64,000 nt of DNA from a virus (IMGVR_UViG_3300043418_000226); one strand, 5' to 3'. Numbered from the stretch's first letter, positions 52,783 through 63,265 are shown. The notes: a model not told the origin generated them from the sequence alone. Translations and numbers: made by a program.

Positions 52783-52818
52783 AATAAAAAAGACACTTAT
52801 TTAAGTGTCTTTTTTATT
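52783..52818. terminator. bidirectional terminator at convergent junction
   Basis: 17-bp perfect inverted repeat AATAAAAAAGACACTTA-TT-TAAGTGTCTTTTTTATT. Confidence 0.85.
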
Positions 52819-58660: not shown

Positions 58661-59242
58661 TTAGTTGTGAACGTACAATGGTTTAGGTACATATTGTACT
58701 TTTCCGTCAGGAAATTTTTGAAGATAGGTTTCAACAAAAAGACCGTCGGCTTGTTCTACTTTAGGGTCCAACCTCATTTGATTTGCGTTTTTACGTCTAA
58801 CCATAAAGTTACCAATATCAATTGATCCCCACTTTGGTTGACATTTAATGTAGTGATATTGGTAATTCGTCCAATTATGAATCATATCACAATACACAAA
58901 ATGTGTTTTTGGTGTTACGGCATCTAAAAAATGGTCAACAAAAACCGGAGTATAATAGTTATCTTCTCCCGTCATAATTACCCAATCTTCTTTGGCGTGT
59001 TCCAACCCGTAATTCCTCGGGGTATGGCCCCAATCGTTATATCTTTCGGGAAGTATTGTAAATTTAATTCGTTCATCACCCTCAAAGTAATTCATTATTT
59101 TGTCTAATGTTCCTTCAGGTGGACAATCGGCAACAACGTGGATAAACCATTTGTCACTTCTTTGTGCCATGATTGAATTAATTGTACACATTAAGAAATC
59201 CGTTCTATTGTAAGTTGGGATTATAAATTCTATTTTACTCAT
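58661..59242 (-). CDS. glycosyltransferase family 2
   Basis: IIPTYNR, WGHTPRNYG, GEDNYY, IDIG. Confidence 0.85.
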   Translation of the reverse strand: MSKIEFIIPTYNRTDFLMCTINSIMAQRSDKWFIHVVADCPPEGTLDKIMNYFEGDERIKFTILPERYNDWGHTPRNYGLEHAKEDWVIMTGEDNYYTPVFVDHFLDAVTPKTHFVYCDMIHNWTNYQYHYIKCQPKWGSIDIGNFMVRRKNANQMRLDPKVEQADGLFVETYLQKFPDGKVQYVPKPLYVHN

Positions 59243-59862
59243 ATCTTATTATATAAATCGTTTTGTTTTTCTTGTTTTGTTATTGTTTTATGATGTTGAA
59301 TACAATATAACTCATTATCATTTGGTAGTGAAGAGAATTTTTGACCACCAATTATTCTTTCGTGAACTTTTCCATACCAAGTCATATTTTTTCTATAAAT
59401 TCTGCCCTGATAATCCGGATAGTTAATATGATTTTTTTCGTTTACAATCCATCCCCATTTATCTATATGTTCTTGAGTAATACCCTCAACAGTATTAATT
59501 CTTGGAACAAAAATTAAGTCCACATCGGGATTTAATTCTAAAATCTCATATAAATTCTCAATTATATATTCACTAATCATTTCATCCGCGTCAATTTGAA
59601 ATATATAATCACCCGAACAATACTCATTAAGTTTGTTCTTCCATTCGGCAAAGTTATTTTCAAAGTCAAGACCTCTCCATGTCTGCACGTTTGGTAATTT
59701 GTTGTAAGGTAATAAGAAATCTAACACATCCGGATTACCATTTTTCTCATCATAAAGAATTACTATCTCGTCCTTCGGTCTTTTGTTCTCCAATAAAAAC
59801 GGAACCAATCTCTTGATTTCCTCCATCTCGTTGCAAACTGTTATTGCGAAACTTATCTTCAT
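59239..59862 (-). CDS. glycosyltransferase family 2 (start probably 59862)
   Basis: ISFAITVCNE, FQIDADE, PDYQGRI, VHE. Confidence 0.85.
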   Translation of the reverse strand: MKISFAITVCNEMEEIKRLVPFLLENKRPKDEIVILYDEKNGNPDVLDFLLPYNKLPNVQTWRGLDFENNFAEWKNKLNEYCSGDYIFQIDADEMISEYIIENLYEILELNPDVDLIFVPRINTVEGITQEHIDKWGWIVNEKNHINYPDYQGRIYRKNMTWYGKVHERIIGGQKFSSLPNDNELYCIQHHKTITKQEKQNDLYNKI

Positions 59863-59953
59863 ATCTTTTTTTATTTTCATTTATTGTTAATTCTTCACAT
59901 TTCCAACACCATCCATCGGTTAGAACGTCCCACATATGTCTGTCACATTTCAT
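59750..59953 (-). CDS. small Cys/His protein (possible zinc finger)
   Basis: CDRH..CWKC; ATGA coupling, but a long overlap with the downstream GT2. Confidence 0.35.
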   Translation of the reverse strand: MKCDRHMWDVLTDGWCWKCEELTINENKKRYEDKFRNNSLQRDGGNQEIGSVFIGEQKTEGRDSNSL

Positions 59954-60159
59954 GCTCTCATCCCTTCATTTGCATCCCTAAATAATTGGGTTAATATTTC
60001 ATTATCAATCTCACGAACAATCTGATTAGATAATAGATTGGTTAATTCACTCTCAACGTCAATTCCGTGACTACTAAATAAATTATTTTCAATTGCTGGA
60101 GACCAATTCGCCACCATGGTCGGACCAACATATCCTGTTAAAAATTTGAAATTTCTCAT
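59950..60159 (-). CDS. mini-protein resembling the spine-helix segment of T4 gp23-type major capsid protein
   Basis: ANWSP..HGIDVESELTNLLSNQIVREIDNEIL. Confidence 0.65.
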   Translation of the reverse strand: MRNFKFLTGYVGPTMVANWSPAIENNLFSSHGIDVESELTNLLSNQIVREIDNEILTQLFRDANEGMRA

Positions 60160-60386
60160 TGTCTTTCTCTTGCGAATATTTTAAATGTCTTACCATTATG
60201 AGTAAACGTAATATCACCACCTGTAGATGGTTGAATTCTAAGACTTAATTCTTGACTACCATTTGCAAATGAAATGGGTTCCTCATTGTCAAACTGAAAA
60301 CAGAATTCATTATTTACGTGTCTATTGTTGTTTGTTAATGTTAAGGTGTTATTAACTTCCTTTTTACTAAAGAATTTAAAGTCCAT
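60156..60386 (-). CDS. hypothetical protein
   Basis: 76-aa ORF translationally coupled on both sides. Confidence 0.6.
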   Translation of the reverse strand: MDFKFFSKKEVNNTLTLTNNNRHVNNEFCFQFDNEEPISFANGSQELSLRIQPSTGGDITFTHNGKTFKIFARERQ

Positions 60387-61636
60387 TACTTTATTTTATT
60401 TAACTTTGGTAAAACCAATTTAGTTTCTTTAGGTACAGTTACGTACGGTTCAAGGATTGATTTAAATTTACTCTTCATCCCACCCATTGAAAAGTTTTGA
60501 CTATTCTCAATACGTAATTCTTCAGATTTTTCTAAAAAAGTATCGTAGTCTTTTTGAACTAATCTTAATACTTCGGCGAATTCATTATAGTTGGCGGTAA
60601 ACCATTTAGAACCTTTAATGACAAATGTATCAATGGCACTTTCATGAACTTCAGTCAATGTACCACCAACCATTATTGCCTTATCTAACGGTAAAAAATC
60701 TTTGTGTCCCGACCAATTAGATGCGATAATTGGTTTCCCCGTCATGGAGAATTCAAGAAGAGGTCTACCGAAACCCTCACCTTTGGTAATTGAAACCATT
60801 GATTTAATTTTAGGGTGATTATATAATTCATTCATTTCGGTATTGGATAAATCCCCAAACAATAAATAAACGGACGGAGAATCCTTAATTTCACCAACGA
60901 TAGATTCAATTTTAATTCTAAAATTTTCACGCTCTTTAATTGAGAATCCAGCCGATGATGTTTTTAGAATTAAAGCCGGTTTATTTTCCCGACCTTTAAA
61001 CGATTCAACAAAACTTTTCACTAACATACCAACATCTTTTCTATCTTGACCTAAATCACCCTTTAACCAATGACCAACAAATAGATAAGCAAAATCTTCT
61101 TTAATATCTAAATCAATTCCTTTATATTCATTGTTATAGATTGTTAAATCAACACCTTCAAATAAAACCTCAACAGGTTTTTCTATTTTAAATTGTTTGA
61201 TTAATTTACCGGTGTTATTTTCTAATTCGTTATAAACTGTTGACAATAAAACGTCTCTTGAAAATTTAGATGTGGTAATAATTAAATCCATTCGGTTACA
61301 TCCATCTACCCAATCTTTGGGCGCTGCCGTGGTTTCGATACCTGCGGTAATACCGATATTAAATTTTCCAACTCTTTGAAACTCATTCGGTACTGTAACT
61401 TGAATGTAGATGTCCGGTTGAACGGATAATTGAGTAATAATATTACCCTCAATCCATTTATGAAATAAATTATCATCTTCTAAAGCGGTTAATGGAGTAG
61501 AACCCCAATTACAACTATCAATTTTGATATCAAACATATCCATTTCGTACAGTGCTTGTAATAAATCTCTTGAGTGTGCACCATATCCACTTCTTGTTTT
61601 AACTGGTCCTCTAAATAATAAATTTGGTTTACTCAT
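60386..61636 (-). CDS. glycosyltransferase family 4 (GT-B)
   Basis: SGYG, FVGHW, RKDVG, GEGFGRPLLE, WSGHKDF. Confidence 0.9.
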   Translation of the reverse strand: MSKPNLLFRGPVKTRSGYGAHSRDLLQALYEMDMFDIKIDSCNWGSTPLTALEDDNLFHKWIEGNIITQLSVQPDIYIQVTVPNEFQRVGKFNIGITAGIETTAAPKDWVDGCNRMDLIITTSKFSRDVLLSTVYNELENNTGKLIKQFKIEKPVEVLFEGVDLTIYNNEYKGIDLDIKEDFAYLFVGHWLKGDLGQDRKDVGMLVKSFVESFKGRENKPALILKTSSAGFSIKERENFRIKIESIVGEIKDSPSVYLLFGDLSNTEMNELYNHPKIKSMVSITKGEGFGRPLLEFSMTGKPIIASNWSGHKDFLPLDKAIMVGGTLTEVHESAIDTFVIKGSKWFTANYNEFAEVLRLVQKDYDTFLEKSEELRIENSQNFSMGGMKSKFKSILEPYVTVPKETKLVLPKLNKIK

Positions 61637-61637
61637 A

Positions 61638-63002
61638 TTAAATTATTTTATATAAATCGAATTTTTTTCTTGGTGAAAAGTTTTCAAAAGCGGTGTCAAT
61701 ACCCTCAATCATTTTCTCACACATTATTTTATTTGATAGGTTTTTAATCATAAACTCCCTACCTTTTTTACCGTTCTCTTTTCTTTTTTTCTTAGGTAAT
61801 TTATACATTGACATAATAGCTTTGGCAACATCATCGTTGTTAACTCTATCATCAAAAATATACGGTGTTGGTACCGAACCGTTAAGATTAATTGCAGATG
61901 ACCAAACAGGAATTACCCAATCCCCTTCTTTTACCAAGTGCATTGATTTTTCTTTATGATGTAAAGAACCGATAGAAATGTAATCATCTTCAGTGAAATT
62001 AAAACCACATTGGTCCTGTAGACCACCGGTTACGTTTACAATGATTGGAGTACCTGACATTAAACTTTCTGCGGTCGTTAGACCAAACCCCTCGTTGTTT
62101 GCAATGTTAATTGCACAATCAACCATATTGTACAATTCGTTTAACATATTCTGTTCTAATTTTATGTTGGTAAATTTAACATCATAATCAGGACATAGGT
62201 CATTTTTAACGGCAATTAAATCCGTACCATTCTCATCAATTGGGGTTGTGTGCATTAACAAAAGACATTTTTTCGATTTTTCTTTTGGTAATTGGTCACA
62301 GAATAATTTAAACGAATAAATTACATCACTTGGTTGTTTCCTTCTTATGTTTCTATTATTATAGAACATAATAAAGTCATATTTTTTATCACCAATAATC
62401 GATTTAACCACATCTGAATTTACTGAGTCTAAAGGTTTAAAAACTTCAGGATTAATCCCATGAGGTACATAACTAATTTGCCAATCCTCTAAAGGTTTAA
62501 AAGTTGGTTTATCCGTTCTTTTACCTACACGATGTACAATTCCGTATGTTTGTTTTGAGATACAACCCAACCAATCACAACTTTCATAGTAATTTCTATT
62601 ATATTGTGGATCGGGTAAATCATCCCATATGTGGTAAAATAACAAAGGAACTTGTTGTCTAATTTCATGCTCATTGTCATATAACCATTGCCAATAATGT
62701 GGGTCGGTAAAATGAAGAATTGCATCTGGTTTCTCTTCTTTAATTAATTTTCTAAGAATTGTCATGTCACCATAACCATTATAAGGAATAATTTTTAAAT
62801 TGGCATCTTTCACACCGGTTCTTTCCCTAACGTCCTCGTTAACGTCAACTATACTACCCAATTCAGGATGGTTTAGAGATGCTCCCAATTGTACCCAATC
62901 ATATTTATGTATCGTTCCTAATACAAATTCTCTGGACATTGTTGCAATTCCCGATGTCATTCTTAAATCGTCGGATAAAAGTAATATTTTCTTTTTACTC
63001 AT
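61638..63002 (-). CDS. glycosyltransferase family 4 (GT-B)
   Basis: SGIA, YVPHG, NRNIRRK, NEGFGLTTAES, TGGLQDQ. Confidence 0.9.
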   Translation of the reverse strand: MSKKKILLLSDDLRMTSGIATMSREFVLGTIHKYDWVQLGASLNHPELGSIVDVNEDVRERTGVKDANLKIIPYNGYGDMTILRKLIKEEKPDAILHFTDPHYWQWLYDNEHEIRQQVPLLFYHIWDDLPDPQYNRNYYESCDWLGCISKQTYGIVHRVGKRTDKPTFKPLEDWQISYVPHGINPEVFKPLDSVNSDVVKSIIGDKKYDFIMFYNNRNIRRKQPSDVIYSFKLFCDQLPKEKSKKCLLLMHTTPIDENGTDLIAVKNDLCPDYDVKFTNIKLEQNMLNELYNMVDCAINIANNEGFGLTTAESLMSGTPIIVNVTGGLQDQCGFNFTEDDYISIGSLHHKEKSMHLVKEGDWVIPVWSSAINLNGSVPTPYIFDDRVNNDDVAKAIMSMYKLPKKKRKENGKKGREFMIKNLSNKIMCEKMIEGIDTAFENFSPRKKFDLYKII

Positions 63003-63003
63003 A

Positions 63004-63201
63004 TTAATATTTGGAACCGCTAACCGCTAAGTTCGTGTAATCATTTATCATCTTTTTAAAAGAATCGTCTTTGTTGTATAAGTCCAATGACCTGTTAACT
63101 AATTTTTGTAAATTAACATTATTGTTAATGGCGTTGACCTTAAATTTTTTGTAAACATCATCTAATACGTTTACACTTGTTAATTTAGTTTCTACTTTCA
63201 T
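63004..63201 (-). CDS. ribbon-helix-helix-like DNA-binding protein
   Basis: KLTSVNV strand followed by two helices (DDVYKKFK, LQKLVNRSLDLY); first gene of the operon. Confidence 0.6.
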   Translation of the reverse strand: MKVETKLTSVNVLDDVYKKFKVNAINNNVNLQKLVNRSLDLYNKDDSFKKMINDYTNLAVSGSKY

Positions 63202-63205
63202 AATT

Positions 63206-63265
63206 TATATACATACATACATTTGTATATATGTGTAATATAAAAAATAACGAGCAAAATGTCAA
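63206..63265 (-). promoter_or_regulatory. promoter TTGACA-N17-TATATT with downstream inverted-repeat operator candidate
   Basis: -35 at 63265-63260, -10 at 63242-63237; TATATACA-N10-TGTATATA at 63206-63231. Confidence 0.65.

What the first reader, a model, noticed from the sequence alone, without database searches (positions are those of the whole stretch)
59950..60159. Stand-alone mini-gene resembling the major capsid protein spine helix
Seen: the 69-aa ORF contains VANWSPAIENNLFSSHGIDVESELTNLLSNQIVREIDNEILTQL. From recall, this matches the conserved segment of T4 gp23-type capsid proteins (approximately A.(W/Y)(S/T).ELAQDL.A.HG.DAEAEL..LLS..I..EI.REI). It has its own start and stop and is translationally coupled inside a glycosyltransferase operon, so it does not look like debris. 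Inference: it could be a decoy for capsid-sensing immunity, a dominant-negative inhibitor of rival phage assembly, or an adaptor that links the glycosyltransferases to the capsid.
Basis: partly seen in the sequence, partly recalled or inferred. Interest (0 to 1): 0.7.

Follow-up and report, generated by a model that had tools for sequence, protein, structure and literature searches.

The report
Stand-alone capsid-protein mimic mini-gene
A giant uncultured lake phage keeps a 69-residue gene copied from the most conserved helix of its own capsid protein; hundreds of related phages carry such copies, they seem undescribed, and they probably imitate the capsid protein rather than build the capsid.

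Summary
The 69-aa ORF at 59950-60159 (-) matches Pfam Gp23 above its cut-off (E 1e-8). A profile of its family aligns to gp23-type major capsid proteins (MCPs) at E 1e-20. The matched part equals T4 gp23 residues 268-314: the E-loop-equivalent return strand, the short acidic P-domain helix and the spine helix.

It is a maintained gene. ATGA overlaps couple it to both neighbours, and dN/dS is 0.13 against an 80%-identical syntenic copy. At least 44 clusters of 63-111 aa relatives exist in AT-rich aquatic phage DNA; near-complete relatives are 311-336 kb.

- It carries the N-terminal FKF[F/L] tag that this scan already found on dozens of small proteins in these phages.
- It fills a variable slot between two GT4 genes and a GT2 gene. 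It is present in 59 of 80 relatives, so it is accessory.
- The same capsid module recurs in other small-protein forms and other gene neighbourhoods.

In T4 this region holds head-length mutations and makes contacts between capsomers.

Function is not shown. My best reading is a competitive mimic of that capsid epitope, most likely a decoy for a host capsid sensor (0.3). Rivals are a capsomer-edge cap (0.22) and a link to glycosylation (0.2). I found no description of this in the literature.

The parts
59950..60159 (-). Mini-gene, 69 aa. Layout: FKFL tag (res 4-7), remnant of the E-loop-equivalent return strand (about 13-20), short acidic helix (21-31), spine helix (35-68), C-terminal ...NEGMRA.
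   Evidence: Pfam Gp23 E 9.9e-9. hhalign E 1e-20. AF2 helices 21-31 and 35-68. dN/dS 0.13. Family alignment A1.
60156..60386 (-). Partner ORF, 76 aa. FKFF tag at the N-terminus, a small beta body, and FKIFAR near the C-terminus. Its stop overlaps the mini-gene start.
   Evidence: Conserved family A2, present in 70 of 80 related loci. AF2 model with three strands, pLDDT 65. No detectable relation to the MCP and no fold match.
59750..59953 (-). 67-aa ORF with C-x2-H...C-x2-C. Its ATG overlaps the mini-gene stop, and its 3' part overlaps the start of GT2 in another frame.
   Evidence: Homologous ORFs of 76 aa in L057 and 102 aa in L176. No Pfam hit. Status as a gene is uncertain.
59239..59880 (-). 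GT2 glycosyltransferase (206-213 aa), the conserved downstream edge of the small-gene slot.
   Evidence: Pfam Glycos_transf_2 E 1e-8. Follows the slot in the relatives whose slot was read out.
60386..61636 (-). GT4-like glycosyltransferase (416 aa), the conserved upstream edge of the slot.
   Evidence: Pfam Glycos_transf_1 E 4.7e-5, below the cut-off. At least 591 related stretches in IMG/VR contigs.
61638..63002 (-). GT4 glycosyltransferase (454 aa).
   Evidence: Pfam Glycos_transf_1 E 9.1e-8. Best solved relative is glycosyltransferase B736L, PDB 3oy2, E 7.4e-8.
63004..63201 (-). 65-aa first gene of the operon. It looks like a ribbon-helix-helix protein by eye only. A sigma-70-like site, TTGACA-17-TATATT, lies upstream at 63265-63237.
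   Evidence: Homologues head the operon in L107 and L221. Pfam gives nothing significant.

Best explanation
**What it is.** The gene encodes a small soluble mimic of one surface element of the phage's own gp23-type major capsid protein. That element is the return strand, the short acidic P-domain helix and the spine helix. The mimic carries the lineage's N-terminal FKF[F/L] tag.

**How it likely works.** It is not a building block of the shell. It works by competitive binding: it presents the conserved acidic turn (D34, E36, E38, D52) and the hydrophobic stripe (L39, L43, I47, I51, I55, L59) to a partner that normally reads this epitope on unassembled capsid protein. The most likely partner is a host defence sensor that detects capsid protein through a short motif. 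The mimic, made from a non-structural operon, would occupy that sensor as a decoy.

**Shown:** homology to the MCP segment, purifying selection, family size, the tag, the accessory slot, and recurrence of the module in other architectures.

**Inferred:** that it binds anything, the identity of the partner, and the timing of expression.
For: **Homology.**. The mini-protein of relative G011 is 51% identical to that genome's own MCP over 57 aa, E 8e-18.

**Which residues are kept and which are lost.**
- Kept in both families: L15, A17, W19, D34, E36, E38, L43, I47, I51, D52, I55, L59.
- Lost in the mini family although invariant or nearly so in MCPs: the alanines A354, A367, A371 and A379, plus R343, K344, E352 and Q355.
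- One face of the element is therefore kept and the tight intramolecular packing face is released.

**What this region does in T4.** T4 head-length mutations A268V, A275T, D285V and D287V/N lie in exactly this region. The short acidic helix makes charge contacts with neighbouring capsomers near the quasi-threefold axes (PMC9546572). By the alignment, T4 D285, D287 and E289 correspond to mini D34, E36 and E38.

**Accessory and fast-evolving.**
- Present in 59 of 80 related loci.
- Long branches next to near-invariant MCP segments.
- dN is higher than in most neighbouring genes.

**Signs of ongoing mimicry.**
- P0022 and P0031 group inside the lineage's MCP clade, which fits refreshed mimicry.
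- Relatives encode a second FKF-tagged protein that resembles the MCP N-arm motif: Pfam E 1e-3, hhalign E 1.5e-5.
- Gol is described as the most conserved region of gp23 and is what the Lit defence reads (PMC3014915).
- Lit and CapRel sense MCPs through short motifs (10.64898/2026.01.04.697583).

**Location.**
- The gene lies far from the MCP gene: in G011 the MCP is at 125 kb and the mini-gene at 303 kb.
- The MCP module also occurs next to a PARP-domain gene and in an unrelated 518-kb phage, with no GT nearby.
Against: - No binding, expression or phenotype data exist.
- No capsid sensor aimed at this segment is known. Lit reads a different gp23 region.
- A mimic of a trigger could set off an abortive-infection sensor rather than block it.
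- All 11 contexts reached through the FKF-tagged mini-protein itself lie in a glycosylation operon, usually translationally coupled. A decoy model does not explain this.
- The tag's lysine is replaced in 14 of 41 related copies, so what the tag does in this family is unclear.
- The lysine-free core is largely inherited from the MCP, which has 7 K in 3105 core residues.
- Expression timing could not be read: only a sigma-70-like site was found, and the MCP gene has no T4-type late promoter either.
Confidence: 0.3

Rival explanations
1. Capsomer-edge cap or assembly modulator. The mimic binds the surface on capsomers that normally receives the short acidic helix and P-domain of a neighbouring capsomer. 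In doing so it delays, steers or poisons lattice growth. The target could be the phage's own capsomers (fidelity or size control of a very large head) or those of a co-infecting gp23-type rival or satellite.
For: - The retained segment matches the T4 region where head-length mutations cluster and where inter-capsomer charge contacts are made.
- The conserved acidic residues are kept.
- Some relatives fuse the module to the N-arm 'VQP' motif, giving a mini P-domain (P0022, P0033, P0049).
- The third group of T4 length mutations lies in the N-terminal part of gp23, the part where the second FKF-tagged mimic aligns in this lineage's MCP.
Against: - It is missing from about a quarter of close relatives. 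One of them, G012, is a near-complete genome of similar size, 311 kb. It therefore cannot be needed for the phage's own head assembly.
- It evolves much faster than the MCP surface it would have to fit.
- A universal gp23 mimic would poison the phage's own assembly as well as a rival's.
Confidence: 0.22
2. Glycosylation-linked protein. One version is an adaptor that brings the operon's glycosyltransferases to capsid protein. The other is a small acceptor or decoration protein that is itself glycosylated, possibly at or near the tag, and then docks on the capsid.
For: - All 11 contexts found through the FKF-tagged mini-protein lie in a GT operon: window, L007, L012/L014, L016, L057, L059, L106, L107, L109, L221 and the P0022 contig.
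- It is translationally coupled to its neighbours.
- The differently built operon in L221 (orf65-like gene, then mini, then a GT2-like gene) keeps the link.
- The best solved relative of GT454 is glycosyltransferase B736L, PDB 3oy2. From my own recall, not checked here, B736L is from a chlorovirus, and chloroviruses glycosylate their own capsid protein.
- Virion glycosylation is known in mycobacteriophages (Freeman 2023, as cited in PMC12619734).
Against: - The GT operon exists without the mini-gene in 21 of 80 relatives. In five of those that could be read, GT416 abuts GT2 directly.
- The GT link may simply reflect descent from a single insertion into a hot spot for small genes.
- The MCP module also occurs without GTs.
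- There is no conserved sequon or Ser/Thr-rich acceptor tract. The conserved T40 and S44 are shared with the MCP helix.
- In an assembled lattice the site this element would bind is already occupied.
- Nothing shows that these GTs act on protein at all.
Confidence: 0.2
3. Generic FKF-tag client. The tag system determines the function, for example delivery, turnover or modification of tagged small proteins. The capsid-derived body would just be one of many interchangeable scaffolds with no capsid-related role.
For: - Only this ORF and orf76 carry the tag in the 64-kb window.
- Relative G011 has 22-27 tagged ORFs with unrelated bodies.
- Earlier scan notes report the same tag system in these phages.
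- L107 has three consecutive tagged ORFs in the slot.
Against: - The body keeps MCP-specific polar residues (D34, E36, E38, D52, T40, S44) across deep divergence.
- Two members look re-homogenised with the MCP.
- The same module is used without the tag in other phages.
Confidence: 0.13
4. Decaying remnant of a partial capsid-gene duplication, or a mis-called ORF.
For: It covers only about a tenth of an MCP.
Against: - dN/dS is 0.13 at dS 0.90.
- The frame is intact in at least 44 clusters at 50% identity and in 59 of 80 loci.
- It has its own conserved N- and C-terminal motifs, absent from MCPs.
- Start and stop overlap the neighbouring genes.
Confidence: 0.02

Closest known systems
T4 gp23 / Pfam PF07068 major capsid protein (HK97 fold), segment 268-314
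   Same: Clear sequence homology to the return strand, short acidic P-domain helix and spine helix. The same acidic turn and hydrophobic stripe are kept.
   Different: - Only about 50 of 520-590 residues are present. There is no A-domain, P-loop or N-arm.
- It has its own FKF tag and an ...INGG...RA tail.
- The MCP's invariant packing alanines are lost.
- It is encoded away from the head genes.
- It cannot form an HK97 fold alone.
Gol peptide of T4 gp23 with the Lit protease (and CapRel-type sensing of capsid motifs)
   Same: A short, highly conserved stretch of gp23 acts on its own as a ligand in a defence pathway (PMC3014915; 10.64898/2026.01.04.697583). This is the logic behind the decoy reading.
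   Different: - Gol is a different region in the first quarter of gp23, and it is part of the capsid protein, not a separate gene.
- No phage-encoded stand-alone capsid mimic is described in the papers I searched.
- In relatives it is the second FKF-tagged protein, not this one, that resembles the Gol-like N-arm.
Capsid-targeting sequence (CTS) of the T4 internal proteins
   Same: A short shared N-terminal peptide sits on many unrelated small phage proteins. Earlier scan notes name this as the nearest analogue of the FKF tag.
   Different: - From my own knowledge of T4, the CTS is about 10 residues and ends in L/I-x-E for the prohead protease.
- The FKF tag has no such site.
- This lineage's MCP itself has a T4-like ...LINE|A site, so FKF is a different label. 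What reads it is unknown.
Small accessory head proteins such as T4 Soc, and satellite capsid-size redirectors (P4 Sid, SaPI CpmB)
   Same: They are small, dispensable and patchily distributed, and they act at inter-capsomer contacts (my own knowledge of these systems).
   Different: None of them is derived from the capsid protein itself. No virion or binding data exist for this protein.

Membership tests
Pfam PF07068 Gp23 (as a domain match) | Score above the curated gathering cut-off | tested here: met
   35.5 bits against a cut-off of 24.4, E 9.9e-9.
Functional HK97-fold major capsid protein | Complete fold: N-arm, E-loop, P-domain sheet, A-domain; about 400-600 aa in gp23-type proteins | tested here: not met
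   It is 69 aa and only profile positions 152-198 of 376 are matched. The lineage's real MCP is 575-591 aa and lies elsewhere in the genome.
FKF[F/L]-tagged small-protein set of these phages (from earlier scan notes) | N-terminal M-x(0-5)-F-K-F-[F/L] | tested here: met
   The protein starts MRNFKFL. F4 is invariant and K5 and F6 are at least 90% conserved in A1. Only two ORFs in the window carry the tag. Variants FRFF, FTFF and FQFF occur in 14 of 41 related copies.
FKF[F/L]-tagged small-protein set of these phages (from earlier scan notes) | Body almost free of lysine | tested here: inconclusive
   There are 0 K in 62 residues behind the tag. The family mean is 1.3% K, against 9.3% in the operon's proteins. 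However, the homologous MCP core is itself nearly lysine-free, 7 K in 3105 residues. Only the flanks are informative, for example MCP K344 and K391, which are replaced.
Capsid decoration protein | Present in virions, bound to the assembled lattice | not testable with these tools
   No virion proteome exists for this uncultured lineage.
Anti-defence decoy | Binds a host sensor and relieves defence | not testable with these tools
   The host and its sensors are unknown. Support is contextual only.
RiPP or glycocin-type precursor peptide | Leader-core layout next to its maturase, plus an export or peptidase partner | tested here: not met
   An ...INGG motif is followed by a variable tail and a GT2 gene is adjacent. 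But the core has no Cys, the operon has no C39 peptidase or ABC exporter, and the most conserved part is the capsid-like helix rather than a core peptide.

The most novel reading that the evidence does not exclude
Large aquatic phages have turned pieces of their own capsid protein's P-domain (the spine-helix module and the Gol-like N-arm motif) into a family of free-standing mimic proteins. These are sometimes fused into a circularly permuted mini P-domain, often carry the FKF tag, and are refreshed from the capsid gene. Their job would be to blunt host immunity that recognises conserved capsid motifs. That would be the first phage-encoded protein decoys of a structural-protein trigger.
Probability: 0.25. 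Interest if true: 0.85.

Novelty: new variant of a known kind. Interest (0 to 1): 0.66.

Why it matters
Capsid proteins are now known to be major triggers of bacterial immunity. Even so, no phage counter-measure that imitates the capsid protein has been described. This is a widespread small-protein family under purifying selection, made from exactly the most conserved contact element of gp23. In T4, that element sets head length.

If it is a decoy, it opens a new class of anti-defence proteins and points to sensors that read this epitope. If it caps capsomers, it is a new kind of assembly regulator or inter-phage weapon. Either way, it gives the scan's unexplained FKF-tag system its first member whose body has a recognisable origin. 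That makes the tag system easier to study experimentally.

Tried and rejected
**The phage's own MCP.**
- The window's 319-kb contig is not held, so this phage's MCP could not be read. I used near-complete relatives G009-G012 instead.
- A 'longer' homologue search found nothing.

**Is orf76 another capsid piece?** No. hhalign probability is 0.1%. Its model has no fold match, with Z at most 2.5.

**Are other FKF-tagged proteins of G011 fragments of larger phage proteins?** Only the mini-protein hits one. Nine of ten scanned tagged proteins have no Pfam domain.

**Lysine purging as independent evidence.** Weakened, because the MCP core is itself almost lysine-free.

**Expression timing.** TATAAATA is not enriched in the window and is absent upstream of the relatives' MCP gene. 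Sigma-70-like sites are not enriched either.

**Other checks.**
- Lys-specific prohead protease idea: the lineage's MCP has a T4-like LINE|A site, so this is not supported.
- The Foldseek match of the mini model is only suggestive, E about 0.5.
- The tree of 53 columns is too poorly resolved to count origins firmly.
- Literature searches for capsid decoys, capsid fragments or capsid glycosylation in jumbo phages found no description of such genes. The 'moraphage' paper (PMC12619734) may or may not concern this lineage; I did not test that.

Full report
**1. The observation**

The ORF at 59950-60159 on the minus strand encodes 69 aa, including the quoted peptide. Its similarity to gp23 is well beyond chance:
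- It matches Pfam Gp23 above the curated cut-off: 35.5 against 24.4 bits, E 9.9e-9, residues 17-63 on profile positions 152-198.
- It matches PHROG 138, 'major head protein'.
- tblastn against 50,697 phage records returns only major capsid protein (MCP) genes.
- It aligns to T4 gp23 residues 268-314.
- A profile of 31 family members aligns to 65-69 MCPs at 99.3% probability, E 1e-20, over 51 columns. The same profile finds the MCPs of complete jumbo-phage genomes at E about 1e-20.
- AlphaFold2 gives a disordered N-terminus, a short helix (21-31) and a long helix (35-68), mean pLDDT 65. The eight best Foldseek rows are all T4 gp23 chains, rmsd 1.3-1.9 A over 39-40 columns, though E is about 0.5.

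In the terms of PMC9546572, the piece is the return strand of the E-loop-equivalent linker, the short acidic P-domain helix and the spine helix.

**2. It is a maintained gene**

- The stop of the upstream 76-aa ORF overlaps the start, and its own stop overlaps the next ATG. Both are ATGA overlaps.
- The window belongs to a metagenome contig of about 319 kb with 32% GC.
- A syntenic copy with 80% amino-acid identity gives dN/dS 0.13 at dS 0.90. The operon's enzymes range from 0.03 to 0.17.
- Across 238 more distant pairs the median dN/dS is 0.44. This is probably inflated by saturation, but it still indicates looser constraint than on the enzymes.
- An exhaustive HMMER search of 1.84 billion cluster representatives gives 137 hits. 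About 44 of them are end-to-end small proteins of 63-111 aa.
- The ESM Atlas holds clusters of 69, 82 and 88 aa with 147, 52 and 148 members, named only automatically.

**3. Anatomy of the family (A1)**

- **Tag.** An N-terminal M-x-x-F-K-F-F-x-G. F4 is invariant; K5, F6 and G9 are at least 90% conserved.
- **Hairpin.** A variable-length hairpin follows. Long members keep the whole E-loop-like hairpin: '...HVQRGERTLRAIWT...' against MCP '...TVTAGERALKAEYS...'. The copy in L057 has lost it altogether.
- **Conserved core.** W-[ST]-P-E...H-G-I-D-x-E-x-E-L-T-x-L-L-S-x-E-I-x-R-x-I-D-N-x-I.
- **Tail.** ...I-N-G-G..., often extended by Y-L-N-x-W-L-x-x-G-x-x-R-A. MCPs have no equivalent of this tail.

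Comparing the two families column by column shows what was kept and what was lost:
- Kept in both: L15, A17, W19, D34, E36, E38, L43, I47, I51, D52, I55, L59.
- Lost in the mini family: the MCP's invariant or near-invariant alanines (A354, A367, A371, A379) and R343, K344, E352, Q355.

One face of the element is therefore preserved, and the tight intramolecular packing face is released.

**4. The FKF tag**

Earlier notes of this scan report an FKF[F/L] tag on dozens of unrelated, lysine-poor small proteins in this genome and its relatives. What reads the tag is unknown. My checks gave the following:
- In the 64-kb window, only this ORF and the upstream 76-aa ORF carry the tag.
- Relative G011, fetched whole at 336 kb, has 22-27 tagged ORFs. 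Most sit in one array, and two sit in the GT operon.
- The mini-protein has no lysine behind the tag. The family mean is 1.3% K, against 9.3% in the operon's proteins.
- The homologous MCP core is itself almost lysine-free, 7 K in 3105 residues. This is therefore weak independent evidence of lysine purging.
- In 14 of 41 related copies the tag's lysine is replaced: FRFF, FTFF or FQFF.

**5. Genomic context**

In the window the order is: orf65, GT4 (454 aa), GT4-like (416 aa), orf76, mini-gene, a 67-aa Cys/His ORF, GT2, then more sugar-modifying genes. The operon ends at a bidirectional terminator at 52783-52818.

The space between GT416 and GT2 is a variable slot. Among 80 IMG/VR loci fetched through GT416:
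- 59 have the mini-gene and 70 have orf76.
- Fifteen have orf76 alone. Of the six with neither, five could be read.
- Three of those that were read out (L113, L136, L186) join GT416 directly to GT2.
- One (L176) fuses an orf76 N-terminal remnant to the mini-protein, giving two tags.
- L107 has three tagged ORFs in a row.

All 11 contexts reached through the FKF-tagged mini-protein itself lie in a GT operon. This includes the differently built L221: an orf65-like gene, then the mini-gene, then a GT2-like gene.

The gene is therefore accessory but tied to this operon, whether by function or by descent.

**6. Relation to the phage's own capsid protein**

- Near-complete relatives G009-G012 (311-336 kb) each encode one gp23-type MCP of 575-591 aa, far from the mini-gene. 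In G011 the MCP is at 125 kb and the mini-gene at 303 kb.
- G011's mini-protein is 51% identical to its own MCP over 57 aa, E 8e-18.
- The MCP segment is nearly invariant across the lineage, while the mini-proteins differ by 20-60%.
- On a poorly resolved tree, two members (P0022, P0031) fall inside the lineage's MCP clade. This suggests recapture or gene conversion from the capsid gene.

**7. The module is used more widely**

- Relatives G010 and G011 encode a second FKF-tagged protein of 155-157 aa. Its 'RR....IAQDLVPVQPL' stretch resembles the MCP N-arm motif. The Pfam Gp23 match is E 1e-3, below the cut-off; hhalign gives 80% probability, E 1.5e-5.
- P0022, P0033 and P0049 fuse the spine-helix module to that N-arm motif in permuted order and end with another FKFF. 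P0033 lies in the same GT slot.
- P0029-type proteins carry an unrelated N-terminal domain of about 90 aa followed by the module. P0029 lies downstream of a PARP-domain gene, with no GT on the 4.7-kb contig.
- An unrelated 518-kb phage has a 130-aa stand-alone copy, Pfam E 1e-15, with neither the tag nor GT neighbours.

**8. What the T4 literature says about this region**

- Head-length mutations A268V, A275T, D285V and D287V/N cluster here. They lie beside the short, negatively charged P-domain helix, which makes charge contacts with neighbouring capsomers near the quasi-threefold axes.
- A further group of length mutations lies in the N-terminal region, which contacts the scaffolding core (PMC9546572).
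- By the alignment, T4 D285, D287 and E289 correspond to the conserved D34, E36 and E38 of the mini-protein.
- Gol is a 29-residue stretch in the first quarter of gp23, described as its most conserved region. It is what the Lit defence uses (PMC3014915).
- Lit and CapRel detect capsid proteins through short motifs, whereas Avs7, Avs8 and Avs10 wrap the whole fold (10.64898/2026.01.04.697583).

**9. Interpretation**

The data show an exapted capsid fragment. It keeps one interaction face of the MCP, evolves fast, is dispensable, is encoded outside the head module and may be refreshed from the capsid gene. This profile fits a mimic that competes for a partner of that epitope. I rank the candidates as follows:
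- A host sensor of capsid protein, with the mini-protein acting as a decoy: 0.30.
- The complementary capsomer surface, with the mini-protein capping or modulating assembly of its own or a rival phage's head: 0.22.
- A role tied to the glycosylation operon, as adaptor or acceptor: 0.20.
- A generic client of the tag system: 0.13.
- Debris: 0.02.
- The remainder is left for unknowns.

The GT linkage is the main fact the decoy model leaves unexplained. The patchy distribution and the GT-free copies are the main facts against the GT model. No step of any mechanism is shown experimentally.

**10. Novelty**

Four full-text searches found no description of stand-alone capsid-fragment genes or of phage-encoded capsid decoys. 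The domain match itself is trivial, since databases already label these proteins 'Gp23 domain-containing'. The biology is undescribed: a tagged, conserved mini-protein family derived from the capsid contact element. The scan had already noted this same stretch from another window (e1-5694608), and it had found the tag system on other DNA.

Noticed in passing
window 60156-60386 (-): The 76-aa partner ORF has an FKFF tag at the N-terminus and FKIFAR near the C-terminus. It is a conserved family (EFCFQFDD.EP...FKIFARERQ) present in 70 of 80 related loci. The model is a small beta-sheet with no fold or family match. Some relatives have untagged, lysine-rich versions (L124, L142, L157).
   Followed up: partly
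window 59750-59953 (-): A 67-aa ORF (MKCDRH...WCWKCEE, C-x2-H...C-x2-C) starts on the mini-gene's stop (ATGA) and overlaps the GT2 start by about 110-130 nt in another frame. It is 76 aa in L057 and a free-standing 102 aa in L176. This could be a real overlapping gene or a truncated one.
   Followed up: partly
L204 12980-13453 (+) (G011); L202 1456-1923 (+) (G010): A second FKF-tagged protein of 155-157 aa with no lysine behind the tag. Its 'RR....IAQDLVPVQPL' stretch resembles the MCP N-arm, the Gol-like motif. Pfam Gp23 E 1e-3 (below the cut-off); hhalign E 1.5e-5.
   Followed up: partly
proteins P0022, P0033, P0049 (L226 6001-6387 for P0033): Longer slot occupants join the spine-helix module to the MCP N-arm 'DLISVQPL..P.G.LYYYD' motif in circularly permuted order. 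They end with a second FKFF, which looks like a mini P-domain.
   Followed up: partly
L222 8917-9309 (-) (518-kb phage G007); L223 2434-2832 (P0029): Stand-alone or fused copies of the same capsid module occur without the FKF tag and without GT neighbours. One is a 130-aa ORF in a megaphage. The others are 130-166-aa proteins with an unrelated N-terminal domain; one of them (P0029, L223) lies downstream of a PARP-domain gene.
   Followed up: partly
window 63004-63265 (-) and 52783-52818: The operon starts with a conserved 65-aa gene that looks like a ribbon-helix-helix regulator by eye; Pfam does not confirm this. Upstream is the best sigma-70-like site in the region, TTGACA-17-TATATT. The operon ends at a 16-bp bidirectional terminator.
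   Followed up: no
window 61638-63002 (-) and 59239-59880 (-): The best solved relative of GT454 is glycosyltransferase B736L (3oy2, E 7e-8). GT2 is weakly similar to GalT1 (5hea) and to a probable beta-1,3-N-acetylglucosaminyltransferase (6h1j). These are hints, no more, about which acceptor the operon glycosylates.
   Followed up: no
L176 4273-4608 (+): A natural fusion: an orf76 N-terminal remnant (MDFKFFIGKQYELEPTQLLSLRRN) is followed directly by a complete mini-protein that starts DFKFFHG. One protein therefore carries two tags.
   Followed up: no
family alignment A1, C-terminal columns: A conserved tail ...INGG..(D)YLN.WL..G..RA is found in about a third to 40% of members and shortened to ..G.RA in the rest. 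It has no counterpart in MCPs and remains unexplained.
   Followed up: no
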